The translations under genes were made by a program, and so were the position numbers. This document shows positions 10,224 through 43,389 of a DNA stretch of 43,498 bases, piece after piece. Each line of letters opens with the position of its first letter. Positions within the stretch are counted from its first letter, which is position 1. The notes beneath the pieces were generated by a model. It saw nothing but the letters and a program-made list of their open reading frames with translations. It was not told the DNA's origin and did no database searches. This DNA comes from Patescibacteria group bacterium (GTDB taxonomy: Bacteria; Patescibacteriota; Microgenomatia; UBA1406; HO2-37-13b). The stretch is from assembly GCA_035290045.1 (NCBI GenBank), contig DATDVH010000021.1, forward strand, positions 1 through 43,498. Reading direction: 5' to 3'.

Positions 10224-13288
<3,065 letters not shown>

Positions 13289-13364: not shown

Positions 13365-13438
13365 TGGACTTGAGGAGAGTTGAACTCCTAACCTCCCGGA
13401 TGCAAACCGGGTGCTCTGGCCAGTTGAGCTACAAGCCC
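13365..13438 (-). tRNA. tRNA-Ala(UGC)
   Basis: The reverse complement folds as gggcttg-ta-gctc-aactggcca-gagc-a-cccgg-tTTGCat-ccggg-aggtt-aggag-ttcaact-ctcct-caagtcc-a. The G3:U70 identity pair is present. Confidence 0.9.
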
Positions 13439-20058: not shown

Positions 20059-22284
20059 TTATTTAAAAACTAAATCATACCAATTATCAAATGAATTATT
20101 TTTATATTCTTTCTTTGTTTTATTAAAATAAATCCATCTTCCACGATAGTTTCTGTCAGTATTCATGACTAATCCTCCTAAAAGATTTTTACCTGTTTTG
20201 TTATTTTCAAGAATGTATTTATATAATCCGTCTGCTTTTGACGCAAAATCGTTTAAGTATGATCCATGCGGATCAAACAATCCAATTCTTCCATTTTTAA
20301 GTTTCACTATAAAATCAACATAAAAAGGTTTTGTTTCTCCATGATGATAGGGAATGGCAAAAAATGTTGCGTCTCGATCTCCATTTTTAAACCACCATTC
20401 AACTGATTCTGACTTCTCCAAATAGGAAATAAAAGCGGTCTCATGTTTATTGTTCTGATTACTAAAAAAAGGAGACATAATTGACTTCTGAACATTTACT
20501 TTCTTATAGTTATTGTCATACACTAAGATATCTGGAATATTCCAATTTTCTTTTATCATTATTTCAGTCTCACGTTTTACGACATCGGATTTATATTCTT
20601 CTTTTGCCCTATTTAAGACTTCTTTGATATGTTCTGAATTTCCTTCTGATAATACTATCTGAATAATGTCATTCTCGCTTTCACACCACTCATAACCAAA
20701 ACTGTTATAGAAAAACGTATAGATTGATTCTTTTGCTCTTCCGACTGATCTATCTTCAGGATAAAACGGGGTTAAATTATTCCTCACAAAAAAGTCAAAA
20801 GATCTCTGCAAATCAAAATTGCTAAATTTTATTTCTCTATCGCCTACAATTGATACTCCAATTAAGGCATCTATGTCGTGAGATTTATAGTCAGAAATAA
20901 TACTGCTATTAATTTTCTTATCACTTCTGTCTATCAGATTCTTCAAGTCATACCGTTTCGCTTGATTCAAAAATATATCGGTAAATAACGGAGAAAGTCT
21001 TGTTTTTTCACGATGTCTTTTTGGATAGTAGGAACGTAAATTAATAGGCATATAATTAGCACGAATCTTGCTGGGATACATGCTGATATAATTTTTTGCC
21101 ATATCCTCTTTAATATTTATGTTATCTATATTTGTGTACACATAACCATAGTTAAGTATTTCATTTTCATAATATCCTTTTTCAGGTTCAGGCATTCTCA
21201 TAATTCGTCCAACTGTCTGTATTGAAAAAATAGCAGAATGCCACTCTCTAAACAAAACTAAAATTTGCGCTCTTGGACAATCCCACCCTAAAGCAATCGC
21301 TTGCTTGAAAATCAGCACTTCAACATCGCTATCGTGTCTCTCAATATCGTCTTTATTTATATGCTCGCCAGATAACCAAATAGCCAATTTGTTATTTCCC
21401 TTTTGAGTTGTGATCGCATATTTATGTTTCAAAATACTTTCTATTCGGTCTCTTATCCTATCCTCTACACTTGTTTTTCTATCAGGTAATTGAATTAAAA
21501 TCAAAGGATTTATCTCAATTTTTCCTTTTTTATAACTATCAACTAATTCTTGTCGTTTTTGTATCGCCACGTCTATAACTAATTCTTCGGTTCCTCCGCT
21601 CAATTTTTGTGTCCGGATTTTCCCGTGTTTTATAAAGTTTTCAAAATCATCATTGAGGATAACTGCTTTCTTAATCATTCCTTCTTTTTTAACATCTTCT
21701 AACTGGACAGATACTTTCTCATCTTCATCGTTAATTGTTGCAGGAGTAGCAGTCACTTCAATGGTGATTTTTGGTCCAATCATTTGAATGAGATCGTGCG
21801 ATATTTCACTGCTGGCATGATGATGCGCTTCATCAATGATCAAAACTATCTTTCGCCCTTCTTCTTTTGTTCGTTCTAATACCTTTGATAGATTAAATTC
21901 TTGCTCGTTATCGCGTATATAAATGTTATCCGTTTTATTAATGCTTTCCCAATTGAAAAATAAAATCTCATTTTCACTTATTTTCCTATCTTCCAAATCT
22001 TCAAAATAACAACATTTGCACGCTTGACTTATCTCAAAATAATTTTCTAATTTTTTATAACTTTGTTCATGTAGTTTCCTTGGAGCTGTCCAGATAAAAC
22101 AAAGAGGTTGCTTAACGTCTTCGCCATCAATCAATTGTTTCAAAAACTCCGCCATCATTATGGTTTTACCCGATCCCGTCGGTGCTTTAAAAACCATTTT
22201 TTTATCACCCGAATAACCCAGGAGCTTCTTTGTTTTTTCTAACAAACTATCTATCGCTTTTTCCTGATAAATTTTCAGTTGCAT
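20059..22284 (-). CDS. res: Type III restriction enzyme Res subunit (SF2 helicase plus C-terminal PD-(D/E)xK-like domain with a non-canonical motif)
   Basis: 741 aa. Motif I is KAPTGSGKT and motif II is IIDEAHH. The C-terminus FAIPYHHGETKPFYVDFIVKLKNGRIGLFDPHG aligns with the PDF...ExKG nuclease motif, but with VD and DPH. Confidence 0.85.
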   Translation of the reverse strand: MQLKIYQEKAIDSLLEKTKKLLGYSGDKKMVFKAPTGSGKTIMMAEFLKQLIDGEDVKQPLCFIWTAPRKLHEQSYKKLENYFEISQACKCCYFEDLEDRKISENEILFFNWESINKTDNIYIRDNEQEFNLSKVLERTKEEGRKIVLIIDEAHHHASSEISHDLIQMIGPKITIEVTATPATINDEDEKVSVQLEDVKKEGMIKKAVILNDDFENFIKHGKIRTQKLSGGTEELVIDVAIQKRQELVDSYKKGKIEINPLILIQLPDRKTSVEDRIRDRIESILKHKYAITTQKGNNKLAIWLSGEHINKDDIERHDSDVEVLIFKQAIALGWDCPRAQILVLFREWHSAIFSIQTVGRIMRMPEPEKGYYENEILNYGYVYTNIDNINIKEDMAKNYISMYPSKIRANYMPINLRSYYPKRHREKTRLSPLFTDIFLNQAKRYDLKNLIDRSDKKINSSIISDYKSHDIDALIGVSIVGDREIKFSNFDLQRSFDFFVRNNLTPFYPEDRSVGRAKESIYTFFYNSFGYEWCESENDIIQIVLSEGNSEHIKEVLNRAKEEYKSDVVKRETEIMIKENWNIPDILVYDNNYKKVNVQKSIMSPFFSNQNNKHETAFISYLEKSESVEWWFKNGDRDATFFAIPYHHGETKPFYVDFIVKLKNGRIGLFDPHGSYLNDFASKADGLYKYILENNKTGKNLLGGLVMNTDRNYRGRWIYFNKTKKEYKNNSFDNWYDLVFK

Positions 22285-22288
22285 ACAG

Positions 22289-23008
22289 CTATTTATTTTG
22301 CTGAACTTCTTTATATTTATTTTTTGCTATACTAACGATGTCTTTAAGTTGAGTTATAGAATCGTACATAAACTCTGGTTCTACTATAAAATATTTTACT
22401 TTATCTACCTTTACCGACAGCTTTTTCTTTAAGAAGTTCAAAGCCTTGTCTTTTTTTTTAGTTATAGGACAGACAATGTCTGCTTTATCATTAGTAATAA
22501 GTATTGTAAACCTACCATTTTCTTTTAAGCTATTGCGTAATTGCCTTCCTATGATAAGTAAGTCACTGTATCTTTCCAAAATAGCTAAAATATCTTCCTC
22601 GTAATCATATGATTTTTTTCCTTTATTTACTAAACTTTCGATAAAATTACAAAAATTTATAGACGCGTTTGGAATCCCATTACGGACTTTTGAAAAACCT
22701 AATGGATTTTTTAGTAAAAAAATTAACAGAAAAATTTTATCGAACACTTGACGTAAAATAAACACGTAACACTTGAAGTATAAATTCAACTTAACATCAG
22801 TATATATGTCTGACAACTTTTCCATATAAAAAGATGGAATTGGTAAATTTAGTTCTTGAAATTCTTGTTTTCTACCGTTAATTTTTTTTTCTAATCTATA
22901 AGAAAACAGCATGCTTAATTCCTTAAGTTCTTCAAAAAATATATCAAGAACGAGAAAACATTCATTAATATTATTTTGTATTTGTGGTAAATGTATTTTT
23001 ATCTCCAT
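22289..23008 (-). CDS. Hypothetical protein X, wedged between mod and res of cassette 1
   Basis: 239-aa ORF with 4-nt gaps to both neighbours on the same strand. I recognise no family motif, only a partial RQLRNSLKEN segment without His. Confidence 0.75.
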   Translation of the reverse strand: MEIKIHLPQIQNNINECFLVLDIFFEELKELSMLFSYRLEKKINGRKQEFQELNLPIPSFYMEKLSDIYTDVKLNLYFKCYVFILRQVFDKIFLLIFLLKNPLGFSKVRNGIPNASINFCNFIESLVNKGKKSYDYEEDILAILERYSDLLIIGRQLRNSLKENGRFTILITNDKADIVCPITKKKDKALNFLKKKLSVKVDKVKYFIVEPEFMYDSITQLKDIVSIAKNKYKEVQQNK

Positions 23009-23012
23009 ACTT

Positions 23013-24683
23013 TCATTTAAAAATCCTCCTATATACCCTTAAAATAGCTTCGGGAATAGGGGATAATTTAATTTTGTGTTTAACATCTTCAAATTCTTCA
23101 TCAAAAGTTTCATCGCCCAATGAAAAAATATATATATTGATTTTTCCTGTTATATCTTTGATTACTTTTTTAAAGTTCTGTATTGCCTTCGTATGCCAAA
23201 TGATACCGGTATGATGAGAGGCGTTTTTGAAGAGCTTAAAATCTTTTTTATCACATACTGGCTCAAATGTGCCTTCCTTTATGCAAAGCATCTCCGTTGC
23301 TTCTGTAGTAAGTTTGATTTTATTTTCATCTGTCGGTTCCTTATAATTCACAAAGTCTGTTTTGAAATATTTTATATTACCGCCTAATCCAGCTACTTGT
23401 TTTCCTTTCACATTTTTGTATCCTTCTATGACTTTTTTAATTCTTGGATAGCAAATATCTTCAGCGATTTTATATCCATTCCCATTATTATTTTCGTTAT
23501 TGGTACATAAAATAAATTTTCGGTTGCCATTATCTTCTTTATTAAGTTCAAGCACTGCATGTCCTGTTGTTCCTGATCCAGCCATAAAATCAAGGATTAT
23601 TGAGTTTTCTTTTGAGGATAGTTGTACTAAATGTTTAATTAAGGAAATTGGTTTTGGGTAATCAAAAATTCTATTATCAAATAAAGCATCAAGTTTTTTT
23701 TGTGCATCTCGTGTAGTTTCAACATTATCAATAATGTTTGTTGGTATCTGTTCATCTATATCATCTGGGAATATTTTTATACGAGGAACCGATTGATATT
23801 TTGGAGGAATTCCAAAAAATATTTTTTTTTGATTTATTAACTCTGTCATTTCTTCTTTTGATCGTTGCCATTGTCTTTTCCAAGTAATTCCTGACGGCGA
23901 TTTAATCTCAAAATAATTGAGATGATGTTTGTTCGACCTTTCTTCTGAAAATGAAATGCTTCCAGAAAACCAACTCCCGCGAGTATCATTATCTGGATTT
24001 TGGAATTCATAATTAACATAATTTAATATTGACCAAGAAGATAGATTATTTTTATTTTTTGCATAGCATAAAATATATTGTTGAAGTGTACGACTCCACC
24101 TATCTTTTTTTCCTTTGCCATGTAACCACATAAAGTTTTGGACAAAATTTTCTTCACCAAACAATCCTTTATTTTTATCGTCCATCAACAGCTTTAATTG
24201 CGCCATTTCGTTGTCATCAATTGAGATAAAAATTACTCCTGTATCTTTTAACAAGTTTTTGGCAAGTTTTAGTCTTTTTTCCATGAATGAAAGCCACTTT
24301 GAATGACGATAGCCATCTTCTTTATCAACAAATCTGTCGTTGAAAATAAAATCTTTGTTGCCTGTGTTATACGGAGGATCAATGTAGATGACATCAACTT
24401 TTTTCGCATGAGTATAATTTAAAACTGAAAGTGCGTGATAATTATCTCCTTCAATCAGTAAATTCATTGGTTTATTTTTATCAGTGATTATTTCTTTATT
24501 TTTTACCTCCTTTAATACCGGTAGTTTTTTCTTGCACATGTCAATCACTTCTTCTGGTTTTTCTTCCCATACAAGACCATATTTTTTCTTTTTTTTTAAT
24601 TCTTTCTTCAACCGACTAACTTCTATTTTTAAGATTTCAATTTCTGAATTATTGTCTGTATATTTCATACTTTTAGTTAACAT
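23013..24683 (-). CDS. mod: Type III R-M Mod subunit (beta-class N6A/N4C DNA methyltransferase)
   Basis: 556 aa. Motif IV (VIYIDPPYNTG) precedes motif I (ILDFMAGSGTTGHAV), which is beta-class order. There is an N-terminal coiled coil, and res is adjacent. Confidence 0.9.
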   Translation of the reverse strand: MLTKSMKYTDNNSEIEILKIEVSRLKKELKKKKKYGLVWEEKPEEVIDMCKKKLPVLKEVKNKEIITDKNKPMNLLIEGDNYHALSVLNYTHAKKVDVIYIDPPYNTGNKDFIFNDRFVDKEDGYRHSKWLSFMEKRLKLAKNLLKDTGVIFISIDDNEMAQLKLLMDDKNKGLFGEENFVQNFMWLHGKGKKDRWSRTLQQYILCYAKNKNNLSSWSILNYVNYEFQNPDNDTRGSWFSGSISFSEERSNKHHLNYFEIKSPSGITWKRQWQRSKEEMTELINQKKIFFGIPPKYQSVPRIKIFPDDIDEQIPTNIIDNVETTRDAQKKLDALFDNRIFDYPKPISLIKHLVQLSSKENSIILDFMAGSGTTGHAVLELNKEDNGNRKFILCTNNENNNGNGYKIAEDICYPRIKKVIEGYKNVKGKQVAGLGGNIKYFKTDFVNYKEPTDENKIKLTTEATEMLCIKEGTFEPVCDKKDFKLFKNASHHTGIIWHTKAIQNFKKVIKDITGKINIYIFSLGDETFDEEFEDVKHKIKLSPIPEAILRVYRRIFK

Positions 24684-24763: not shown

Positions 24764-25021
24764 TTATTTTTTTATTTCCTCATCTGATTCAATATGTTCC
24801 AAAATGGAACTAACTGATTTTTTAGCTAATTCTCCTGTTTTAAAGATGTTGTGTAAATGTTTGGTAACCGCGGGTCTTTGTATATTAAAAAGAGTTGCTA
24901 TTTGACTTTGAGTTAACCACACAGTTTCTTTCTCCATTCGTACATCCAATTTAACCTCGTTTTTAGAAGTTTGATAAATAAATATTTCCCCTCTATTTTG
25001 TTTCCTTATTATTTTTTTCAT
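24764..25021 (-). CDS. RhuM-family N-terminal (DNA-binding) domain-only protein
   Basis: 85 aa. EIFIYQTSKNEVKLDVRMEKETVWLTQSQIATLFNIQRPAVTKHLHNIFKTGEL matches the conserved RhuM/virulence-protein N-terminus. Full-length members are much longer. Confidence 0.6.
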   Translation of the reverse strand: MKKIIRKQNRGEIFIYQTSKNEVKLDVRMEKETVWLTQSQIATLFNIQRPAVTKHLHNIFKTGELAKKSVSSILEHIESDEEIKK

Positions 25022-37052: not shown

Positions 37053-37124
37053 GCGATGGTAGTTCAACGGCAGAACGTCTCCTTCCCAAGGAGAAGGTTG
37101 AGGGTTCAATTCCCTTCCATCGCT
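37053..37124 (+). tRNA. tRNA-Gly(CCC)
   Basis: gcgatgg/ccatcgc acceptor, anticodon stem tctcc/ggaga, loop tTCCCaa, T arm gaggg-ttcaatt-ccctt. Confidence 0.9.
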
Positions 37125-37177
37125 CAAGAATTTATTTTTTCTTAAGCTATCAAATCATAAAGCCCATGTATAAATTA

Positions 37178-39880
37178 TCATACATTATTGGCAAACAAAC
37201 TCTCTAACTCCGCAAAATTCCTTAACTTATTTTTCTCAAATTCTTCCTGTTTTATATAGAGCATTTTATATGAAATGCTTTTTTGCGCTTTGTTTATATC
37301 ATCACTCCACTGCTTTAATCTTTCAATTTTCAAAACATCGTTAATATCTTCTCGTCCTTTTGTTTCAATAATAAATATTTCCTTTTCAGAAACCTTCACG
37401 ATAAAATCAGGATAAAAATTGGATAGTATTCCTTCTGCATTTTTATAATCAATCTTAAAATTCACTGCAAGGTAATTTTTTGCAAATGAAATAATATCGT
37501 CGCACCGTTCCAAAAAAGTAGCAAAATCAAGTTCAAAATGATTATCACCTACTATCTTATTGAATATACTTTTTTTAGGATGAGCTATATATGGCTTATC
37601 TCTCAACACAATTGGACGTGTATCGCTGATTTTAAGATAGTTTATGATCTGCGCTTCTCCCCTATCACGTATAGTGAGATCATTTATCGCAGTCTTAAAG
37701 GTCTCCATGATTATACGCACCACTTCAAACTCAGAAAGATTTCGTAAAATGTTCGCATCTTCCAGATCAACAGATTTTTCAAAAGGATATTCCTTGATAA
37801 ACTCCTTCACCTTTCCATATAAAATATCATATCCGCCAACGAGACGAAGCTCATTTTTTATCGTTTGTGCAAAATAACCAATCGCCGAATGATAATTGCT
37901 GGAAGGTGAAGTATCCAAAACTGTTGCATGATGAATGGTTTTATCAGAACCTGCTTTATTTACAACATACTGAAAGATAATTTCACGTTTTTCTCTTTCT
38001 GAAAATTGTTGTATTGGCATTTTCTTTGTTTCAAATTGAGAAGGGCGCAGTTCTGAAAGATTTTTATATTCTCTATATACACGCGGCGATAGTATGGGAA
38101 GTTCAATATCAAGTTGTTCTATATCTTTTTTTTTATTTTCAAAATCAACCTCAACCACTAAAGGAGCTATTGGTTTGTATCCTTCGCCCATTTTTCTTCG
38201 CTCAAGTGCTACTCCCTCACTTTTTACAGATTCTACAAAATTCATAAACGCATCAGTGCCGACGACGCTGACATATTCTTCTATATCCTTTCCAAAATAC
38301 ATGCGCCGAAGTCCTCTCCCTAAGGTTTGTTCTGGCAAAATATTACTCTGTGCAGAGTAGGGACGAAGTCCCACAATCGTTGTCACATTTTTCACATCCC
38401 ACCCCTCCTTCAACATCAGCACAGATACAATAGCTTTATAGCGGCTATCCCATGAGTCAATACGATGCGCTTCTTTTCGTAATTTTTCAAGTTCCTCCTT
38501 TTTCTTTCCTGTTGATGCCTCATATATATCTCCATTATTTTTTGTGTGAATAATAAGCACAGCATTTTTCAACTTTGGATACCTGCTTTCAAGATAACTC
38601 GCCACATCATCGCAGTTTTTGGTGTCATCAGTCATCACAAAAAGAATTGCTTTATTCGTATGTTTATGCTCCTCATATACTTTCTCCCATTCTAAATAAC
38701 CAAGATTGATAAAGTCTCCATATCGCTCGGTAAATTTACTGCTCTTTTTCTCCTCAAGTCTGGCGTGGCTGGCAGAATCGGGAATAACCGGGTGTTTGAC
38801 TACATTCTGATAAATTGCCTCAACAAGAGGATAGTCTGCGACAGTCTGCACAAAAATAGAGCCGTCGTTATGTTTGGGCGTTGCTGTTACATCAATCTGA
38901 AGCGCAAGTTCTGATCCTTTTTGTTTGAGATTATTATGAATATCCTGTATAGACTGAAACCATGCAAGCCGTTCGTCGTGGATATGATGCGCTTCGTCAT
39001 TCAACACTACAAGTTCGTCAATATCGCGCACAATATCGCTTACCTGTATCTTTGATTCATGTGTCTTGCCTGTTGGTTTTTTTCCTAAAAAATAATCTGT
39101 AGTATTTTCATCGCTAAGATTTGGTTCTGTTTCTCGCCCACTATATACTCTATGAATATTCGTAAGGAAAATATTACCAGTTTTGCGAAACGATCCTACA
39201 TCATCTTGCAGGTGAACAGTGAGTTGAAAATCATCTTTCCAATTTTTACCTTCATAACCATTATCCGGAAGCACCGGATCTTGATAAAAGATTTTTAAGC
39301 CGTCAAAATCCGCACGAATGCGGTCAAGTACAATAATATTGGGAGTGATAATGAGAAAGTTGCGCGCCAATGTTGAATTACTCTCATAAAGTTTGTGAAA
39401 ATAGCACCATGCAAGGATGAGGCTTAATACTTTTGTCTTGCCGCTTCCCGTCGCCATCTTTATCACAAATCGCCGCCAATCCTCTGGGAACATGCCGGCA
39501 GAAACTGCGCTTGAACTATCAAATCGCATTAGATCGTACTTATCTTTCACGCCAACCACTTCGTACAGATAAATAACCGTTTCAACAGATTCCCTCTGAC
39601 CAAAATAATATTGAAATTGTGCGGTTGCTCCATCAGCTTTTGAAAGTAAATGTTCGTGATTGAACCACCAGTCAAGAAGCGCTTTACTCGTATCTGTGGC
39701 GCCTTCATATTTTTTATTCCTCCATTCTTGCACTCTTTTTCTCAAAATCGCAACAAGCGGAGGAAGAAGCTTTTCATATCCTTGACTACGCAATTCCTCA
39801 TCAGCCGGAAACCAGCGATATTCTGGATCAGCTATCTCGTATGGTGATTTTGGAAATTTAGGATGTAATGCCATAGACAA
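37178..39880 (-). CDS. res: Type III(-like) restriction enzyme Res subunit (SF2 helicase plus canonical PD-ExK nuclease)
   Basis: 900 aa. Motif I is MATGSGKTK and motif II is LNDEAHH. The C-terminus is NFYPDFIVKVSEKEIFIIETKGRED. Confidence 0.85.
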   Translation of the reverse strand: MSMALHPKFPKSPYEIADPEYRWFPADEELRSQGYEKLLPPLVAILRKRVQEWRNKKYEGATDTSKALLDWWFNHEHLLSKADGATAQFQYYFGQRESVETVIYLYEVVGVKDKYDLMRFDSSSAVSAGMFPEDWRRFVIKMATGSGKTKVLSLILAWCYFHKLYESNSTLARNFLIITPNIIVLDRIRADFDGLKIFYQDPVLPDNGYEGKNWKDDFQLTVHLQDDVGSFRKTGNIFLTNIHRVYSGRETEPNLSDENTTDYFLGKKPTGKTHESKIQVSDIVRDIDELVVLNDEAHHIHDERLAWFQSIQDIHNNLKQKGSELALQIDVTATPKHNDGSIFVQTVADYPLVEAIYQNVVKHPVIPDSASHARLEEKKSSKFTERYGDFINLGYLEWEKVYEEHKHTNKAILFVMTDDTKNCDDVASYLESRYPKLKNAVLIIHTKNNGDIYEASTGKKKEELEKLRKEAHRIDSWDSRYKAIVSVLMLKEGWDVKNVTTIVGLRPYSAQSNILPEQTLGRGLRRMYFGKDIEEYVSVVGTDAFMNFVESVKSEGVALERRKMGEGYKPIAPLVVEVDFENKKKDIEQLDIELPILSPRVYREYKNLSELRPSQFETKKMPIQQFSEREKREIIFQYVVNKAGSDKTIHHATVLDTSPSSNYHSAIGYFAQTIKNELRLVGGYDILYGKVKEFIKEYPFEKSVDLEDANILRNLSEFEVVRIIMETFKTAINDLTIRDRGEAQIINYLKISDTRPIVLRDKPYIAHPKKSIFNKIVGDNHFELDFATFLERCDDIISFAKNYLAVNFKIDYKNAEGILSNFYPDFIVKVSEKEIFIIETKGREDINDVLKIERLKQWSDDINKAQKSISYKMLYIKQEEFEKNKLRNFAELESLFANNV

Positions 39881-39961
39881 TTAAATTATTTCATGTCATT
39901 TTCTGATTGATTTTTCAAAATCAAATGTATACAATATCTATTGATCGAAAGATCAATAACT

Positions 39962-40432
39962 CTAGAGCTTGGGGACTCTTTCATCGTAATCCCTTTTGCT
40001 AATGCGCAAAATACTGCATAATATCAGTTTGAAATCATCAAATAACTTTTTAACCTCAATTATCAACTTATCCATTTGTTTGTCTGCTACTGAATCGACC
40101 ATATTGTGAACAATTTTTATTCTGTAATGGTTAATTTTCTTCAAAATTTCTATGAGTTCTTCTTTATAGTTAAAATTTACTCTTTTAAGAGTACTAATTT
40201 TTCCACCTAATGGCTGTTTAATAAATTTGTTTTCATCTATACTTAATGGAATTAGTTTTACTATAGATACTAAAAAATATTCCACAAGATTAAAATAAAG
40301 CAAAGATGAGGCTGTCCTGTTAGGTAAATTATTCCTTCCATACATTAAATCCGATAGGTGCATTATTCGTATAGCAGTATGATTTTTAAAAATATCTTTA
40401 TCTGATATTTCTTTATATTTTGTGATATTCAT
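39962..40432 (-). CDS. Small alpha-helical protein with an Rx4H motif (HEPN/DUF4145-like candidate), wedged between mod and res of cassette 2
   Basis: 156 aa. Its ATG overlaps the mod2 stop by 4 nt. It carries ...[22 protein letters not shown] (R104-x4-H109), placed near the C-terminal third as in HEPN domains. The confidence value refers to the ORF; the functional call rates about 0.35. Confidence 0.75.
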
Positions 40433-42513
40433 ATATTCACCTCAATAACTTTCATCGTATCATTCCCAAAAATATCAACCACTTTCACTGCTATTTTGCG
40501 CCTGCCTTTTTCACATTCATGAAAAATGCTTTTCAGTTCAAGACTGCGGTTTTTCTTGGTACGGAAAGATTGCCACTCATTTTCAAAAATATAGTCCCCA
40601 GTCCACATCTCTTTATACTTTCCATCGCCTTTTGGCACTTTGATGATCTCTTTTTTGCTCTCAAAGTCAAAATCCACTGCCCAATAATCTATCCAATCAG
40701 TCCATTTTTTAGTAAGCACTTCGCGGGAGACAATGCCGTTTTTATCTTTGATGACTTTTACGATTTGTCCGTTATCCACAGTTACTTTTGCGTAGCCGTT
40801 TTTTATCTCTGTAACTATATTGTCAATTTTATCTTGACTATAGTGGACTGAAAAATCAGTCAGTTCAATCGCTACCGATTTATTCGTGATATATGGCTTG
40901 ACTTCAATATACGCCACATCATGAAATACCACTTGGTTTTTCTCTATTGCGCGCTTATCAAAGACATCTTTCGGAATGTATTTGAGCAGAATATCAACAC
41001 CTTTTTCCTTGGCGCTGTCAAGAATATGAGGAAAAAGTCCCATCTCAAATTCAAACGCAAGTATATCAACCTTTGTGAAATGTTTTTCTCTACATTCACT
41101 TATCACTTCTTCTATGAAAAGTCGGGATGCGGGCAAGTTAATTGGTCCAACAATAACCACTCGCGAAGACTTTTTGCCATGCACCGTCTGAAAGCCAACT
41201 ATTTTTTCCGCTTGATACGCTTTGAGAATAAGCTCCACAAAATCGTTATTTTTCTGTGCTATTTGTTTTTCTTTTTCTTCATCTTGAAGCTCTTGATTTA
41301 CTCCGATATAATGCTCTACTTCGTATTTGCCAAGATTGAGTATCTCAAACGCGCGATAATCACTGCTTTCTTTCTTCATCTTTCTTTGGACTTCAATCAT
41401 GCGTTTCCGTATCGTATGAATAGCAAACTTGCCAAGGTCCGACCCGATCCATTTCCGACCAAGTTTCTCTGCGACTGCCAAAGTAGTGCCTGAGCCGCAG
41501 AAAAAATCAGCGACAATATCATTTTCATTTGATGATGCTTGAATAATCCGTTCAAGAAGCGCTTCTGGTTTTTGCGTTGGATAGCCAACTACTTCATTTC
41601 GTTGCCTGTCTGCTGTGTAAACGTCACTCCACCAATCCTCCAGTCTCTTTCCTTGTTCTTCTAGTTGGGCAACTCTTTCAGCCGAATCCTCCGATTCTTT
41701 ACCGAGAAACGCACCTCTGTTGTGTATACCTGATTTATGTTCAACTCTTGGGGTGTTAAAAATATTTGTCTCTCCTTTTGAGTAAAAGAATATCGAATCA
41801 TGTTTGCGAGTGAATGCACTGTTGTTCTTTCCCGGTCCGCTATAACACCACGCAATTTCATTTCTGAAATTATCTTTCCCAAAAACTTCACTCAAAACCA
41901 AACGCATATAACTATTTACCCGATAATCACAATGTACATAAATACTGCCATCGTCGGCGAGTAGATCACGCATCAGAGATAACCTTTCATAGATCATCGC
42001 GATAAAACTATCCGCGCCCTTGCCCCAGGTATCGCGATATGCCAACTCTTCCAAAACTGTTGGTTCTTTGGTGAAGGTCTCATCGCCGATTACAATATCC
42101 ATAGAAAAATCAGCTCCCACATCAAATGGAGGGTCTATGTAAATCAGCTTTATACCGCCCATTTTTTCTATCTCTTCACGAAGCGGTCCATTTTTCAGAC
42201 TTGAAAGGATCAGTTTGTTATCGCCCCAGATCAGTTTATTCGTCCAACCCTTCAACTGCCGGCCGCGCGTATCATAACTAAAAAGACCAAGTTGCGCATG
42301 TGAGTCTTCAACCTTTTCTGCTCGCGGTTCGTCAATATGCTCAATGGTCTGAAAGGGAAGCACGACCTTCGTCACTTCATGTGTCTTACCGTTCCATACA
42401 AGCTCCACTTCCTTCTTATCTTCAAAAAGAAGAAAACGATATTTGTCTGGTATCTCTTTCTCTGCATCAATTAGTTTTATAACATCTCGTTTTTCATTGT
42501 CAGAAAGTTTCAT
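40429..42513 (-). CDS. mod: Type III(-like) R-M Mod subunit (beta-class DNA methyltransferase)
   Basis: 694 aa. Motif IV ([11 protein letters not shown]) precedes motif I ([26 protein letters not shown]). Confidence 0.9.
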
Positions 42514-42543
42514 ACCGACCTTATTTTACCAAAAATGAACGAA

Positions 42544-42572
42544 ATAATAAAACCATGTATAAATCTTGTCAA
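42544..42572 (-). promoter_or_regulatory. Near-consensus sigma70 promoter of mod2 (TTGACA-17-TATTAT)
   Basis: On the minus strand: TTGACA (42572-42567), a 17-nt spacer, then TATTAT (42549-42544). An AGG Shine-Dalgarno-like triplet lies 7 nt before the ATG. Confidence 0.55.
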
Positions 42573-42580
42573 GTAGATAA

Positions 42581-42599
42581 ATCTGTTGATGCAACAGAT
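42581..42599. promoter_or_regulatory. Palindrome ATCTGTTG-atg-CAACAGAT immediately upstream of the mod2 -35
   Basis: Read directly: 8-bp arms, 3-nt spacer, 8 nt from the -35 hexamer. Confidence 0.35.
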
Positions 42600-42650
42600 T
42601 ATTCCTTGTAGTTAAAATACTAACTGTTAGTATTGTGTTATAATGATTTC

Positions 42651-42719
42651 ACAAGTAAATCCTCAACCGTGGGGTTCCGGATGGTTCCTCGTAAACAGCG
42701 GTTGAGGTTTTGTTTTTTT
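42651..42719 (+). ncRNA. Candidate small RNA B (extended -10 TGtTATAAT at 42636-42644; 9-bp stem plus U-run terminator)
   Basis: Stem cctcaaccg (42661-42669) / cggttgagg (42699-42707), followed by ttttgttttttt. The loop region contains GGGGTTCCGG. It shares ttCACAAG(a/t)AAA and GGGTTCCG with module A. Confidence 0.3.
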
Positions 42720-43389
42720 AGGAAAATAGAGGATTTTCTTCAATAACTCTTTTTTTTATGAGATTATAATAACTTTTATCATTGTACTCATATTTGCGAA
42801 AAATTGACCAACTCACAAAATCAACTACTTGTAGTGATTGCTCTTCAGTTGGATATTTAATAGCAATTTTAATCAAAGATCTATGGTTTGTTTTTACTTG
42901 TTCTTCTAAATAATGAGTAAAATTTTTATTTAAAAACTTGTTTGTTTCAAGCCTTGCCGCCACAAGTATAATGGGGATTGACGTATTCAAAATCTTCCTT
43001 GTCATAATCCTATCAAGTAAAATATTGGTAACGTAATTGTAAAGAATATGCTTTTCATCTTGAAGACGAGTATATACTTTTGATTTGTTAAGAAAGATCG
43101 TCATGATGTTGCAATTGCTTCTTGCCAATAGCTTTAATAACCTTTTACGCGTATATGGTTTTTCTTTATAACAATGAAGTACGCCACCACTCAATTTTTT
43201 TATTTTTTTTATTAGCGATTGATGAACTTTTTTGACAATCTTCTCCAACGGTTTCTTATCTATTGCAAAAATTAAAGTAATGATAAAGTACCTAGAACTC
43301 TTTTTCTTTTTGTTAAATCCAAGATCGACTGACTCATCTAAAAAAATATATTGTGACATATCTGGATGTACCAGAAATCTCAAAAACAA
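42718..43389 (-). CDS. DUF3800 family protein
   Basis: The N-terminal YIFLDES.D and the C-terminal LQVVDFVSWSIF are the two DUF3800 signature blocks. The likely true start is M11 (MSQYIFLDES, about 43359). Confidence 0.7.
   Translation of the reverse strand: MFLRFLVHPDMSQYIFLDESVDLGFNKKKKSSRYFIITLIFAIDKKPLEKIVKKVHQSLIKKIKKLSGGVLHCYKEKPYTRKRLLKLLARSNCNIMTIFLNKSKVYTRLQDEKHILYNYVTNILLDRIMTRKILNTSIPIILVAARLETNKFLNKNFTHYLEEQVKTNHRSLIKIAIKYPTEEQSLQVVDFVSWSIFRKYEYNDKSYYNLIKKRVIEENPLFS

What the first reader, a model, noticed from the sequence alone, without database searches (positions are those of the whole stretch)
37178..42513. Type III-like R-M cassette 2 with an embedded Rx4H (HEPN-like) gene: Mod - small protein - Res
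Canonical Type III loci are two genes, mod and res. Here a 156-aa ORF (39962-40432) sits between them, and its ATG overlaps the mod stop by 4 nt, which suggests translational coupling. The protein looks all-helical and carries ...[13 protein letters not shown] (R-x4-H), the hallmark spacing of HEPN RNase active sites and of the R-M-associated DUF4145 branch. The arrangement parallels prrC, the anticodon nuclease embedded in the EcoprrI Type I locus. PrrC is held latent by the R-M complex and is released when phage inhibits restriction. A Type III-embedded HEPN module would then be a second-line abortive-infection effector. The whole locus plus DUF3800 sits right after tRNA-Gly(CCC), a typical island position. 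The same three-gene layout recurs at 20.0-24.7 kb with a different middle gene, which suggests a modular slot.
Basis: partly seen in the sequence, partly recalled or inferred. Interest (0 to 1): 0.78.

Follow-up and report, generated by a model that had tools for sequence, protein, structure and literature searches.

The report
HEPN-like cargo gene inside Type III R-M
A small gene wedged between the two genes of a DNA-restriction system encodes a previously unclassified member of a known class of RNA-cutting "back-up" defence proteins, and it is one of many interchangeable defence genes that occupy this same slot in related systems, which fits a published idea and is not a new kind of system.

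Summary
Mod (40429-42513), a 156-aa ORF (39962-40432, ATGA overlap with the mod stop) and Res (37178-39880) form one minus-strand operon next to tRNA-Gly(CCC).

The small protein belongs to a tiny unannotated family: 9 representatives among 1.84 billion proteins, with no Pfam, NCBIfam or PADLOC hit. Only six columns are invariant across 16 sequences, and they include N101, R104 and H109.

[quoted passage not shown] Their best Foldseek matches by probability are HEPN structures (HepT, 1wwp at prob 0.99, YutE). No sequence or structure search is statistically significant, and it is not DUF4145, HepT or PrrC.

The gene occurs between mod and res in 7 loci from two Type III lineages that are only 24-30 % identical, and its tree is incongruent with theirs.

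In 69 orthologous loci, 19 have mod and res abutting and 48 carry other cargo there (MNT-HepT, KilA-N, ABC ATPases, Schlafen-like and others). None carries this family.

HEPN toxins in Type I and III R-M with "toxin displacement", and "guilt by embedding", are already published. Verdict: a new member of a known kind. The PrrC-like guard mechanism is untested.

The parts
42544..42572 (-). Promoter-like site upstream of mod (TTGACA-17 nt-TATTAT, 11 of 12 matches)
   Evidence: This is a consensus scan only: 25 sites were found against 22.6 expected by chance, but this is the best-scoring site and it sits 31 nt upstream of the mod start. No terminator-like site lies on the minus strand between mod and res.
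40429..42513 (-). mod: Type III beta-class N6/N4 DNA methyltransferase, 694 aa
   Evidence: PF01555 at 1.2e-47. PADLOC MTase_III at 1.1e-118, full length. Motif IV DPPF at residue 127 precedes motif I FCGSG at 338. Orthologues are 58-67 % identical in L028, L029, L113 and L114.
39962..40432 (-). Middle gene: 156-aa single-domain HEPN-fold protein of a small unannotated family
   Evidence: No Pfam, NCBIfam or PADLOC family. 9 representatives in 1.84e9 proteins. AF2 pLDDT 86.5 with helices 11-32, 36-60, 67-72, 75-83, 90-113 and 117-152. Best Foldseek probabilities are to the HEPN toxin HepT. dN/dS 0.17-0.50.
40106..40132 (-). Codons for the invariant N101-x2-R104-x4-H109 signature (putative active site)
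   Evidence: Invariant in 16 homologues whose pairwise identity goes down to 16 %. Located at the C-terminal end of helix 3, just before the loop to helix 4, as defined for HEPN in PMC3710099.
40280..40282 (-). Codon for E51, a nearly invariant acidic residue in helix 2
   Evidence: E in 15 of 16 sequences, D in P0014. Helix 2 spans 36-60. It corresponds in concept to the helix-2 acidic residue of HEPN domains, but the Ex3[KR] form is absent.
39881..39961 (-). 81-nt spacer between the middle gene and res, with a perfect 9-bp hairpin (39938-39959)
   Evidence: Overall folding is not better than shuffles (z = -0.67) and the function is unknown. In L113 and L114 this spacer is absent and the middle gene overlaps res.
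37178..39880 (-). res: Type III restriction subunit (SF2 helicase plus C-terminal PD-(D/E)xK nuclease), 900 aa
   Evidence: PF04851 at 4e-17 and a weak PF19778 match at residues 769-856. NCBIfam BPTD_3080-family restriction endonuclease at 1.4e-80, below the family cut-off. GSGKT at 145, DEAH at 295, PD..ExK at 824-841. 198 relatives at 61-70 % identity in bacteria and archaea.
42718..43389 (-). DUF3800 gene immediately upstream. It probably has its own terminator-like hairpin and is not shown to be part of the operon.
   Evidence: PF12686 at 7.5e-12. phrog_9243 at 6.5e-14. DUF3800 also occurs as slot cargo in L075. The 204-nt spacer to mod folds at z = -2.1, with no Rfam match.
37053..37125 (+). 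tRNA-Gly(CCC) flanking the res end
   Evidence: No att-like repeat was found.
20059..24683 (-). Cassette 1: an unrelated Type III lineage with its own middle gene (mod 23013-24683, 239-aa orphan 22289-23008, res 20059-22284)
   Evidence: The 239-aa protein has 2 database hits and no family and is not related to the 156-aa family. The three-gene unit is conserved at the same dnaE-atp site in L110. Mod and Res are only 22-24 % identical to those of cassette 2.

Best explanation
**What it is.** The 156-aa gene encodes a minimal, single-domain protein of the HEPN fold. It belongs to a small family that has not been classified before. The signature is N-x2-R-x4-H at the end of helix 3, plus an acidic residue in helix 2.

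**Where it sits.** It is one of many interchangeable defence or toxin 'cargo' genes that occupy the mod-res junction of a highly conserved, widely transferred Type III restriction-modification lineage.

**How it is expressed.** It is probably transcribed with mod and res from the promoter-like site upstream of mod. Its translation is coupled to the end of mod through the ATGA overlap.

**How it most likely works.** It is most likely a latent, metal-independent endoribonuclease. It would add an RNA-targeting, growth-arresting second layer to the DNA-targeting first layer.

**Shown:**
- gene structure and the overlap with mod;
- purifying selection;
- conserved residues;
- fold topology;
- repeated linkage to two Type III lineages;
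- the cargo-slot architecture.

**Inferred:**
- homology to HEPN;
- RNase activity;
- a defence role;
- co-transcription.

**Undetermined:** whether the R-M complex controls the protein (PrrC-like) or it acts on its own like the solo Abi-type HEPN proteins.
For: **Fold**
[quoted passage not shown] R104 and H109 lie at the C-terminal end of helix 3 and E51 lies in helix 2. This matches the structural definition of HEPN in PMC3710099.
- In Foldseek against PDB, the highest-probability, best-TM, lowest-rmsd matches are the HEPN toxin HepT: 6m6w_D (prob 0.82, TMt 0.59, rmsd 4.3 A) and 7bxo_F.
- An independent model of the 28 %-identical P0014 (pLDDT 71.8) hits 1wwp_A (prob 0.99, TMt 0.69, rmsd 3.5 A), 1ylm_A (YutE) and 8yuf_B ('HEPN toxin'). 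PMC3710099 lists 1wwp and 1ylm as HEPN structures.

**Conservation**
- N101, R104 and H109 are 3 of the 6 invariant columns across 16 sequences with pairwise identity down to 16 %.
- dN/dS is 0.17-0.50.
- There is a weak PF18730 (HEPN_Cthe2314) match over residues 43-119 of P0003 at E = 0.031.

**Linkage**
- The gene lies between mod and res in the window, L028, L029, L113 and L114 (lineage A) and in L001/L002 and L003 (lineage B, whose Mod is 30 % and Res 24 % identical)..
- Its tree is incongruent with the Mod and Res trees.

**Slot**
- 48 of 69 orthologous loci carry cargo between mod and res. The cargo includes bona fide MNT + HepT pairs, ImmA + DUF4411, AAA_15/AAA_21 ATPases, a Zeta-like kinase and Schlafen/AlbA_2 proteins.

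**Literature**
- HEPN families in Type I and Type III R-M, with toxin displacement (PMC3506569; PMC3710099).
- An embedded HEPN protein (HEC-08) whose Rx4-6H histidine is required for defence (bioRxiv 10.1101/2024.01.29.577857).
Against: - No search is statistically significant. The best Foldseek E-values are 0.2-0.6. The BFVD viral library gives nothing. A PDB profile search gives nothing relevant. No Pfam, NCBIfam or PADLOC family passes threshold.
- hhalign of the family against real HepT proteins from the same slot gives probability 0.2 %. Both alignments are shallow.
- The residue after R is I, K, V or T, not the N, D or H typical of HEPN, and there is no Ex3[KR] motif.
- Four-helix bundles are common, and a bare Rx4H occurs by chance in 18.5 % of shuffles.
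- Distant family members sit in housekeeping neighbourhoods with no R-M genes or evident antitoxin nearby: between dnaK and dnaJ, after a UbiE-type methyltransferase, and after AsnS/AspS. The protein may therefore not be a toxin, and R-M linkage is not a property of the whole family.
- None of the 69 GTDB loci of this Type III lineage carries the gene. The R-M system clearly works without it.
- No activity of any kind has been tested.
Confidence: 0.6

Rival explanations
1. **PrrC-like R-M guard.** The HEPN protein binds the Mod2Res complex and is held inactive by it. When a phage inhibits the Type III enzyme, the protein is released as an RNase and aborts the infection.
For: - The gene is linked specifically to Type III mod-res junctions in two lineages that are only 24-30 % identical, and it moves independently of them. 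This suggests a functional tie to Type III systems as such.
- Its start is coupled to the mod stop in 5 of 5 lineage-A loci.
- The window cassette has no antitoxin-like partner gene.
- PrrC/EcoprrI is a precedent, and the generalisation to R-M-linked HEPN families is published (PMC3710099; PMC12707154).
Against: - Coupling to the Mod stop is a generic property of the slot (30 of 48 loci).
- Self-contained TA pairs such as MNT-HepT and ImmA-DUF4411 occupy the same slot, so the position does not imply control by the R-M complex.
- In L001 and L002 two other genes separate the gene from mod.
- There is no ATPase or other sensor domain like the one in PrrC.
- Distant homologues exist with no R-M genes nearby.
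- No interaction data exist.
Confidence: 0.2
2. **Non-catalytic accessory or regulatory subunit.** A helical RNA-, nucleotide- or protein-binding protein that tunes the expression, assembly or timing of the Type III enzyme, for example by delaying Res activity when the cassette enters a new host. It would not be a toxin.
For: - Some HEPN domains are non-catalytic binding domains (PMC3710099).
- The residue after R is atypical.
- Distant homologues sit in housekeeping contexts and seem to be tolerated without a partner.
- Type III systems are known to need delayed Res activity on establishment (PMC12707154).
- A hairpin-bearing 81-nt spacer precedes res.
Against: - R104, H109 and N101 are strictly invariant among only six invariant columns. 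That pattern is typical of a catalytic site.
- Orthologous Mod/Res pairs function as two-gene units in 19 of 69 loci, and none of the 69 carries this gene. It is not a required subunit.
- The other occupants of the slot are defence or toxin modules, not regulators.
Confidence: 0.12
3. **Selfish hitch-hiker or addiction module.** The gene, like other slot cargo, exploits a highly mobile, strongly expressed R-M operon as a vehicle. It may stabilise the cassette by post-segregational killing and has no dedicated antiphage role.
For: - The Res lineage is 61-70 % identical across bacterial and archaeal phyla, which implies rampant transfer.
- The cargo is extremely diverse (more than 40 clusters) and includes classical TA pairs.
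- The gene tree is incongruent with the carrier's.
Against: - A solo toxin with no antitoxin cannot act as an addiction module in the classical way.
- Embedded genes tested so far mostly proved to be antiphage systems (bioRxiv 10.1101/2024.01.29.577857).
- Purifying selection on the gene is compatible with this explanation and with the others.
Confidence: 0.1
4. **Not a HEPN protein.** It is an unrelated four-helix bundle in which the conserved Asn, Arg and His serve some other function, such as ligand or metal binding or a protein interface.
For: - All sequence and structure matches are below significance.
- hhalign against HepT gives probability 0.2 %.
- Hemerythrin-like and designed helical bundles score similar E-values.
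- The residue after R is atypical.
Against: - Two independent models of proteins 28 % identical to each other both rank HEPN structures top by probability, including 1wwp at 0.99.
- The motif sits exactly where HEPN places it, an insert lies between helices 2 and 3, and an acidic residue lies in helix 2.
- The weak Pfam hit is also to a HEPN family.
Confidence: 0.2

Closest known systems
R-M-embedded HEPN proteins (Anantharaman et al. 2013, PMC3710099; Makarova et al. 2012, PMC3506569), e.g. Abi2/AbiD/AbiF, AbiU2, AbiJ, ApeA and Ymh embedded in R-M operons
   Same: - A small HEPN-fold protein with a conserved Rx4H.
- Encoded inside an R-M operon on the same strand.
- Variable occupancy of the position ('repeated toxin displacement').
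- Type III systems are explicitly mentioned as hosts.
   Different: - It matches none of the Pfam models for those families.
- The residue after R is hydrophobic or basic, not N, D or H.
- An additional invariant Asn lies three residues before the R.
- The family is tiny, and every member with a source annotation comes from a CPR-type or groundwater metagenome.
HepT/MNT (DUF86, PF01934) HEPN toxin-antitoxin, e.g. Shewanella SO_3166 (PDB 5YEP, 6M6W, 7BXO)
   Same: - It is the best structural match of the window protein.
- It is a single-domain HEPN of about 135-155 aa.
- Rx4H is at a similar relative position: HepT R97/H102 of 133 aa against R104/H109 of 156 aa.
- HepT-MNT pairs occupy the same mod-res slot in 6-7 orthologous loci.
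   Different: - No PF01934 match, and hhalign probability is 0.2 %.
- No MNT antitoxin gene is adjacent.
- The RX4HXY tyrosine targeted by MntA is absent (H109-N-M).
PrrC / EcoprrI (anticodon nuclease embedded in a Type IC R-M locus) and RloC
   Same: - A HEPN-type nuclease gene nested in an R-M operon.
- The proposed logic of a second-line RNA-targeting response.
   Different: - PrrC is a large ABC-ATPase-HEPN fusion regulated by nucleotides and by EcoprrI. Here the protein is a bare 156-aa domain in a Type III operon, not a Type I operon.
- No interaction or activation has been shown.
[quoted passage not shown]
   Same: - Same-strand genes nested between core genes of a defence system.
- Similar embedding frequency: 62.7 % of Hma systems against 48 of 69 (70 %) here.
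- Similar cargo: ATPase-nuclease pairs, HEPN, PIN and RelE-type RNases.
- One embedded HEPN protein (HEC-08) has been validated.
   Different: [quoted passage not shown]
- Here the host is a two-gene Type III system with a single, precisely bounded slot, and the first cargo gene usually overlaps the mod stop codon.
Three-gene Type III variants with an extra helicase-like ATPase (Murray et al. 2021, PMC8259958)
   Same: A Type III system with a conserved third gene of unknown role, linked by 'guilt by association'.
   Different: - That gene lies 5' of mod and encodes an SF2 ATPase conserved in more than 500 genomes.
- Here the extra gene lies between mod and res, is a small HEPN-like protein, and is a rare, exchangeable cargo.

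Membership tests
HEPN superfamily (definition of PMC3710099) | Four-helix up-down bundle built from two alpha-hairpins | tested here: met
   AF2 models: helices 11-32/36-60 and 90-113/117-152. The same layout appears in the P0014 model. Definition.
HEPN superfamily (definition of PMC3710099) | [quoted passage not shown] | tested here: met
   Short helices 67-72 and 75-83. In P0014 there is a disordered loop 63-79 plus helix 83-90.
HEPN superfamily (definition of PMC3710099) | Conserved Rx4-6H at the end of helix 3, before the loop to helix 4 | tested here: met
   R104 and H109 are invariant in 16 sequences. They lie in helix 90-113, followed by loop 114-116.
HEPN superfamily (definition of PMC3710099) | Polar residue (N, D or H) immediately after the conserved R | tested here: not met
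   Position 105 is I, K, V or T across the family. An invariant N101 lies three residues upstream instead. The paper describes this feature as 'typical', not obligatory.
HEPN superfamily (definition of PMC3710099) | Conserved acidic residue in helix 2, typically as Ex3[KR] | tested here: inconclusive
   E51 (D in P0014) is nearly invariant and lies in helix 2. There is no K or R at +4. Spatial proximity to R104/H109 could not be measured, because no coordinates were available.
HEPN superfamily (definition of PMC3710099) | Statistically supported sequence-profile or structure similarity to established HEPN domains | tested here: inconclusive
   Foldseek probabilities are high (0.77-0.99) for HepT, 1wwp and 1ylm, but E-values are 0.2-1.4. 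PF18730 scores E = 0.02-0.03, below its cut-off. hhalign against HepT gives 0.2 %. HHpred against Pfam and PDB was not available.
HEPN superfamily (definition of PMC3710099) | Metal-independent endoRNase activity that depends on the R and H | not testable with these tools
   Requires biochemistry.
   No member matches even at E <= 10.
HepT/DUF86-MNT toxin-antitoxin | PF01934 match, RX4HXY motif, and an adjacent MNT nucleotidyltransferase antitoxin | tested here: not met
   No PF01934 hit. The motif reads R-IKIV-H-N-M. No MNT gene is present in the cassette. hhalign gives 0.2 %.
PrrC/RloC anticodon nucleases | N-terminal ABC/Rad50-like ATPase fused to a C-terminal HEPN domain; PrrC is embedded in a Type I hsd locus | tested here: not met
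   The protein is a 156-aa single domain with no ATPase, and the host system is Type III. Latency and release by the R-M complex cannot be tested with these tools.
Type III restriction-modification system (the cassette as a whole) | Beta-class Mod (motif IV DPPY/F before motif I FxGxG), and Res with SF2 helicase motifs plus a C-terminal PD-(D/E)xK, both in one operon | tested here: met
   PADLOC MTase_III 1.1e-118 and REase_III 1.8e-14. PF01555 and PF04851. DPPF at 127, FCGSG at 338, GSGKT at 145, DEAH at 295, PD..ExK at 824-841. Motif definitions as in PMC8259958. Enzymatic activity was not tested.
Embedded defence cargo ('guilt by embedding', bioRxiv 10.1101/2024.01.29.577857) | Gene nested between core genes of a defence system, on the same strand, in a position whose content varies among homologous systems | tested here: met
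   48 of 69 orthologous loci have same-strand cargo, which falls into more than 40 clusters. Antiphage activity of this particular gene was not tested.

The most novel reading that the evidence does not exclude
The N-x2-R-x4-H protein is a stripped-down, ATPase-less guard of Type III restriction. It docks on Mod2Res and is unleashed as an RNase when a phage disables the enzyme. The mod-res junction of this pan-prokaryotic Type III lineage is a dedicated hotspot, driven by homologous recombination, where cargo depends functionally on the status of the flanking R-M enzyme. That would make it the first tractable Type III counterpart of PrrC/EcoprrI.
Probability: 0.15. Interest if true: 0.7.

Novelty: new member of a known kind. 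Interest (0 to 1): 0.4.

Why it matters
**The protein family.** If the protein is an active RNase, it adds a very small, unannotated HEPN family to the defence repertoire. The family has no Pfam, NCBIfam or PADLOC model. Its R-M-linked members come from metagenomes and uncultured MAGs, and the one with a taxon name is from a Patescibacteria (CPR) genome, a group whose immune systems are poorly charted.

**The slot survey (the more useful by-product).** One highly conserved Type III lineage has Res 61-70 % identical across many bacterial and several archaeal phyla. It carries a sharply bounded, hypervariable cargo position between mod and res in about 70 % of loci.

**Practical use.**
- It extends 'guilt by embedding' to Type III R-M.
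- It gives a clean natural experiment: the same Mod and Res, with or without dozens of different cargos. This can test whether embedded effectors are controlled by the flanking R-M enzyme or merely travel and are expressed with it.
- It offers a list of uncharacterised cargo families to screen for antiphage activity, such as the 276-aa partner of DUF488 and the 190-aa partner of the AAA_15 ATPases.

Tried and rejected
**Searches with no significant or relevant match**
- Pfam, NCBIfam, PADLOC and PHROGs scans of the 156-aa protein and its homologues gave no significant annotated family. The only hints were PF18730 at E = 0.02-0.03 and phrog_5483 (unknown function) at E = 2-4e-4.
- A PDB sequence-profile search gave only spurious hits such as DDAH and Mediator subunit 9.
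- Foldseek against the BFVD viral library gave nothing.
- A viral-contig scan found no relative.
- hhalign of the family against seven real HepT proteins from the slot gave probability 0.2 %.

**Approaches that failed or fell short**
- I tried to retrieve full HEPN sequences from PDB using a DUF86-like bait string of my own. It recovered only the motif region of HepT chains. This was useful only to confirm HepT's GLRNIAVHDY at residues 95-104.
- The first genome-contig scan, with the single Res protein, found nothing. The second, with a three-sequence alignment, succeeded.

**Ideas tested and rejected**
- The 239-aa middle protein of cassette 1 is not a divergent paralogue of the 156-aa family. 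There is no HMM hit, and it is an orphan with 2 database hits.
- The locus does not show the marks of a tRNA-integrated island. There is no att-like repeat and no integrase among the called genes and Pfam hits of the L004 locus.
- No DUF3800-associated Rfam RNA motif lies in the DUF3800-mod spacer.
- The mid-res spacer does not fold better than shuffles.

**Set aside**
- L011, an apparently different context for the identical protein, is a truncated-mod variant or an assembly chimera.
- P0012, a 208-aa family member lacking the motif, has an unrelated C-terminal half and is probably a frameshift or chimera. It was excluded from the alignments.

Full report
**1.

The minus strand of 37178-42513 carries three genes:
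- a 694-aa gene (40429-42513);
- a 156-aa gene (39962-40432);
- a 900-aa gene (37178-39880).

The first is a Type III Mod. It matches PF01555 at 1.2e-47 and PADLOC MTase_III at 1.1e-118 over its full length. DPPF at residue 127 precedes FCGSG at 338, which is the beta-class order.

The last is a Type III Res. It matches PF04851 at 4e-17 and PADLOC REase_III. It carries GSGKT at 145, DEAH at 295 and PD..ExK at 824-841.

The start of the middle gene overlaps the mod stop by ATGA. A near-consensus sigma-70-type site (TTGACA-17-TATTAT) lies just upstream of mod, and no terminator-like site separates the three genes on that strand.

tRNA-Gly(CCC) lies 52 nt beyond the res stop. A DUF3800 gene lies 204 nt upstream of mod. 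A second cassette, Mod-239 aa-Res, is at 20059-24683.

The source named for the identical database protein is a Patescibacteria (CPR) MAG.

**2. The middle protein is real, rare and has a conserved putative active site**

An exhaustive HMMER scan of 1.84 billion cluster representatives found 9 relatives. A profile search of 5.8 billion proteins found 12. None has a Pfam domain, and the only name any source gives is 'hypothetical protein'.

The alignment has 16 sequences with pairwise identity from 16 to 95 % (median 29 %). Only six of its 128 ungapped columns are invariant: Y46, G76, L82, N101, R104 and H109. E51 is nearly invariant.

A bare Rx4H would occur by chance in 18.5 % of shuffles of the protein. 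The evidence is therefore the conservation, not the motif.

dN/dS is 0.17-0.50 in all informative pairs.

**3. Fold**

AlphaFold2 on the family alignment gives a confident model with pLDDT 86.5 and pTM 0.81. Its helices span 11-32, 36-60, 67-72, 75-83, 90-113 and 117-152.

[quoted passage not shown] R104 and H109 lie at the C-terminal end of helix 3, just before the loop to helix 4, and E51 lies in helix 2. This is what Anantharaman et al. (PMC3710099) give as the structural definition of HEPN.

Foldseek against PDB finds nothing significant; the best E-value is 0.3. The matches with the highest probability, the best TM-score and the lowest rmsd are chains of the HEPN toxin HepT: 6m6w_D (prob 0.82, TMt 0.59, rmsd 4.3 A) and 7bxo_F.

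As a replicate I modelled the most divergent subfamily member, P0014, which is 28 % identical (pLDDT 71.8). Its rank-2 and rank-3 hits are 1wwp_A (prob 0.99, TMt 0.69, rmsd 3.5 A) and 1ylm_A (YutE). PMC3710099 lists both as HEPN structures. 8yuf_B, 'HEPN toxin', is at rank 13.

Evidence on the other side:
- hhalign against seven genuine HepT proteins gives probability 0.2 %.
- PF18730 (HEPN_Cthe2314) scores only E = 0.02-0.03.
- No member matches DUF4145.
- The residue after R is I, K, V or T, not the typical N, D or H.

My reading is that this is a HEPN-fold protein of a new, divergent family. I put that at about 0.7, and I do not consider it proven.

**4. Genomic linkage**

The subfamily that is 42 % or more identical to the window protein is found between Type III mod and res in seven distinct loci:
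- the window;
- L028 and L029;
- L113;
- L114;
- L001/L002 and L003.

One further member, in L026, sits beside BstXI, DpnI and an N6_N4 methyltransferase at the end of a contig.

These loci belong to two very different Type III lineages. In lineage A, Mod is 58-67 % and Res 61-68 % identical to the window's. In lineage B, Mod is 30 % and Res 24 % identical.

The small gene's tree does not follow theirs. The L001 and L003 proteins (lineage B) are 51-53 % identical to the window protein, and the L028 and L029 proteins (lineage A) only 46-48 %. L114 has lineage-A Mod and Res, yet its small protein is 62 % identical to the L001 protein.

So the gene moves between Type III operons but keeps landing in the same place.

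The slot can hold more genes alongside it:
- a Schlafen/AlbA_2-HATPase_c_4 protein in L028;
- a P-loop protein in L029;
- 74-aa and 116-aa proteins in L001.

The distant clade (16-31 % identity) is not linked to R-M genes:
- P0014 lies between dnaK and dnaJ.
- P0018 follows a UbiE-type methyltransferase.
- P0013 follows AsnS/AspS.

**5. The slot**

A scan of GTDB species genomes with a Res alignment returned 198 relatives at 61-70 % identity. They come from Proteobacteria, Nitrospinae, CPR, Dependentiae and Bdellovibrionales, and from archaea (Methanobacteriota, Nanoarchaeota, Woesearchaeota, Methanoperedens).

Of the 80 loci kept, 69 show mod upstream of res on the same strand:
- 19 have the two genes abutting or overlapping.
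- 2 have a gap with no ORF of 70 aa or more.
- 48 carry one to six same-strand genes between them.

The cargo falls into more than 40 sequence clusters.

Annotated representatives:
- KilA-N (12 members);
- SLFN_AlbA_2 + HATPase_c_4 (7 members, counting the L028 protein);
- MNT (PF18765) + HepT-like (PF01934, 2e-31) pairs (6-7 loci);
- DUF488 plus an unknown 276-aa protein;
- HTH-Peptidase_M78 + DUF4411;
- several AAA_15/AAA_21 ABC-type ATPases;
- Bro-N;
- a Zeta-toxin-like kinase;
- DUF3800.

None of these loci carries the 156-aa family.

In 30 of the 48 loci, the first cargo gene overlaps the Mod stop codon. The ATGA coupling seen in the window is therefore a feature of the slot and not of this gene.

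Cassette 1 of the window belongs to a third lineage, with Mod and Res 22-24 % identical to those of cassette 2. It carries its own orphan 239-aa middle gene, and the unit is conserved at the same dnaE-atp site in L110.

**6. Mechanism**

*Shown:*
- an intact Type III operon with a nested gene under purifying selection;
- a HEPN-type fold with a conserved N-x2-R-x4-H signature plus Glu;
- repeated, mobile association with Type III mod-res junctions;
- a slot otherwise filled with toxin and defence modules.

*Inferred:* the protein is a metal-independent RNase, produced with Mod, that provides RNA-level growth arrest or abortive infection as a second layer.

The PrrC-like guard version is possible, in which the protein is held inactive by Mod2Res and released when restriction is inhibited. 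Four findings weaken it:
- the coupling to Mod is generic to the slot;
- autonomous TA pairs occupy the same slot;
- the protein has no sensor or ATPase domain;
- homologues exist with no R-M genes nearby.

I rate the guard version at about 0.2.

**7. Comparison with what is known, and novelty**

Makarova et al. [quoted passage not shown]

Anantharaman et al. 2013 list at least 16 HEPN clades linked to R-M and propose the PrrC analogy for them.

Payne et al. [quoted passage not shown]

Murray et al. 2021 describe a different three-gene Type III variant, with an ATPase 5' of mod.

The concept is therefore known. Two things appear new. One is the protein family itself. The other is the quantified, sharply bounded mod-res cargo slot of a pan-prokaryotic Type III lineage, which the embedding study did not analyse.

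Classification: new member of a known kind. Interest is moderate (0.4).

**8. Limits**

- No activity was tested.
- HHpred-grade profile comparison and pairwise structural superposition were not available.
- Model coordinates could not be inspected, so the proximity of E51 to R104/H109 is unverified.
- The GTDB slot survey used my own ORF calls and simple clustering.
- Many metagenomic contigs are short.

Noticed in passing
window 37178-39880; loci L030-L109: The Res of cassette 2 belongs to a lineage that is 61-70 % identical in 198 GTDB species genomes. These span many bacterial phyla and several archaeal ones (Methanobacteriota, Nanoarchaeota, Woesearchaeota, Methanoperedens). That is unusually strong conservation combined with very wide horizontal spread.
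   Followed up: partly
L030-L109, between mod and res: The mod-res junction is a cargo slot. 48 of 69 loci carry 1-6 same-strand genes in more than 40 clusters: KilA-N, Bro-N, MNT+HepT, ImmA+DUF4411, AAA_15/21 ATPases, Schlafen/AlbA_2-HATPase_c_4, DUF488 plus an unknown 276-aa protein, a Zeta-like kinase and DUF3800. In 30 of the 48, the first cargo gene overlaps the Mod stop. Several cargo clusters have no annotation.
   Followed up: yes
window 22289-23008 (-); L110 6170-6856: The 239-aa middle gene of cassette 1 is an orphan with 2 database hits and no family. It is kept at 74 % identity in a related organism inside the same Mod-X-Res unit, at the same dnaE-atp site. Its function is unknown and its structure was not modelled.
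   Followed up: partly
window 24764-25021 (-): An 85-aa ORF with weak helix-turn-helix hits (E = 0.02-0.16) lies between dnaE and the cassette-1 mod. It is absent from the syntenic locus L110. It could be a controller-type regulator of cassette 1.
   Followed up: no
window 42718-43389 (-) and spacer 42514-42717; L075 2416-3120: A DUF3800 gene sits directly upstream of mod, and DUF3800 also appears as slot cargo in L075. The literature describes DUF3800 as RNase H2-like, retron-associated and accompanied by 11 different structured RNAs. No Rfam motif was found here. The spacer folds somewhat better than shuffles, z = -2.1, with a 9-bp hairpin right after the DUF3800 stop.
   Followed up: partly
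L014 3742-4281; L022 773-1324; L115 8001-8441: Distant members of the family (16-31 % identity, same invariant N/R/H) lie in housekeeping neighbourhoods of contigs that look CPR-like. One is between dnaK and dnaJ, flanked by tiny membrane-protein ORFs. One overlaps the end of a UbiE-type SAM methyltransferase and is followed by a 105-aa protein that by eye resembles MazG-type pyrophosphatases. One follows AsnS/AspS and is followed by a 196-aa protein with HD-like motifs by eye. Neither resemblance was checked by a search.
   Followed up: partly
L011 1-3158: One contig carries the identical 156-aa gene preceded only by the C-terminal 268 codons of mod. It is 99 % identical in nucleotides to the window from mod codon ~426 onward, and upstream it has unrelated Wzy_C and polysaccharide-deacetylase genes. 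It is either a strain with a truncated mod or an assembly chimera.
   Followed up: partly
L028 7999-9006; L029 12536-13395: Further defence-type genes lie directly downstream of res in the relatives. L028 has a Shedu SduA_C protein at 1.2e-16. L029 has a 122-aa ORF with a weak Eco29kI-like hit, then a DUF6680 protein.
   Followed up: no
window 10225-13285 (-), 13365-13438 (-): A 23S rRNA gene (3061 nt against a 2925-position model) is followed by tRNA-Ala. No 16S or 5S rRNA gene is detected anywhere in the 43.5-kb window, so the rRNA genes appear unlinked.
   Followed up: no
window 39938-39959 (-): A perfect 9-bp hairpin (UUAUUGAUC-UUUC-GAUCAAUAG) starts 2 nt after the middle-gene stop, followed by a second, weaker inverted repeat before res. 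The spacer as a whole is not more stable than shuffles (z = -0.67). The spacer is absent in L113 and L114, where the genes overlap.
   Followed up: partly
window 39962-40432 (residues 78-133); P0003 residues 56-128: There is a weak but repeated match to phage family phrog_5483 (unknown function) at E = 4e-4 and 2e-4, covering the region with the Rx4H motif. It may indicate related proteins in phages.
   Followed up: no
L001 2323-2547; L063 2888-3103: A 71-74-aa protein with no annotation is shared between the slot of a lineage-B locus (L001) and a lineage-A locus (L063). It is another small cargo gene that moves between Type III lineages (cluster 16).
   Followed up: no
P0012 (208 aa): This family member is identical in pattern up to about residue 95, then continues with an unrelated C-terminal half that lacks the R/H motif. 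It is probably a frameshifted or chimeric gene call.
   Followed up: no
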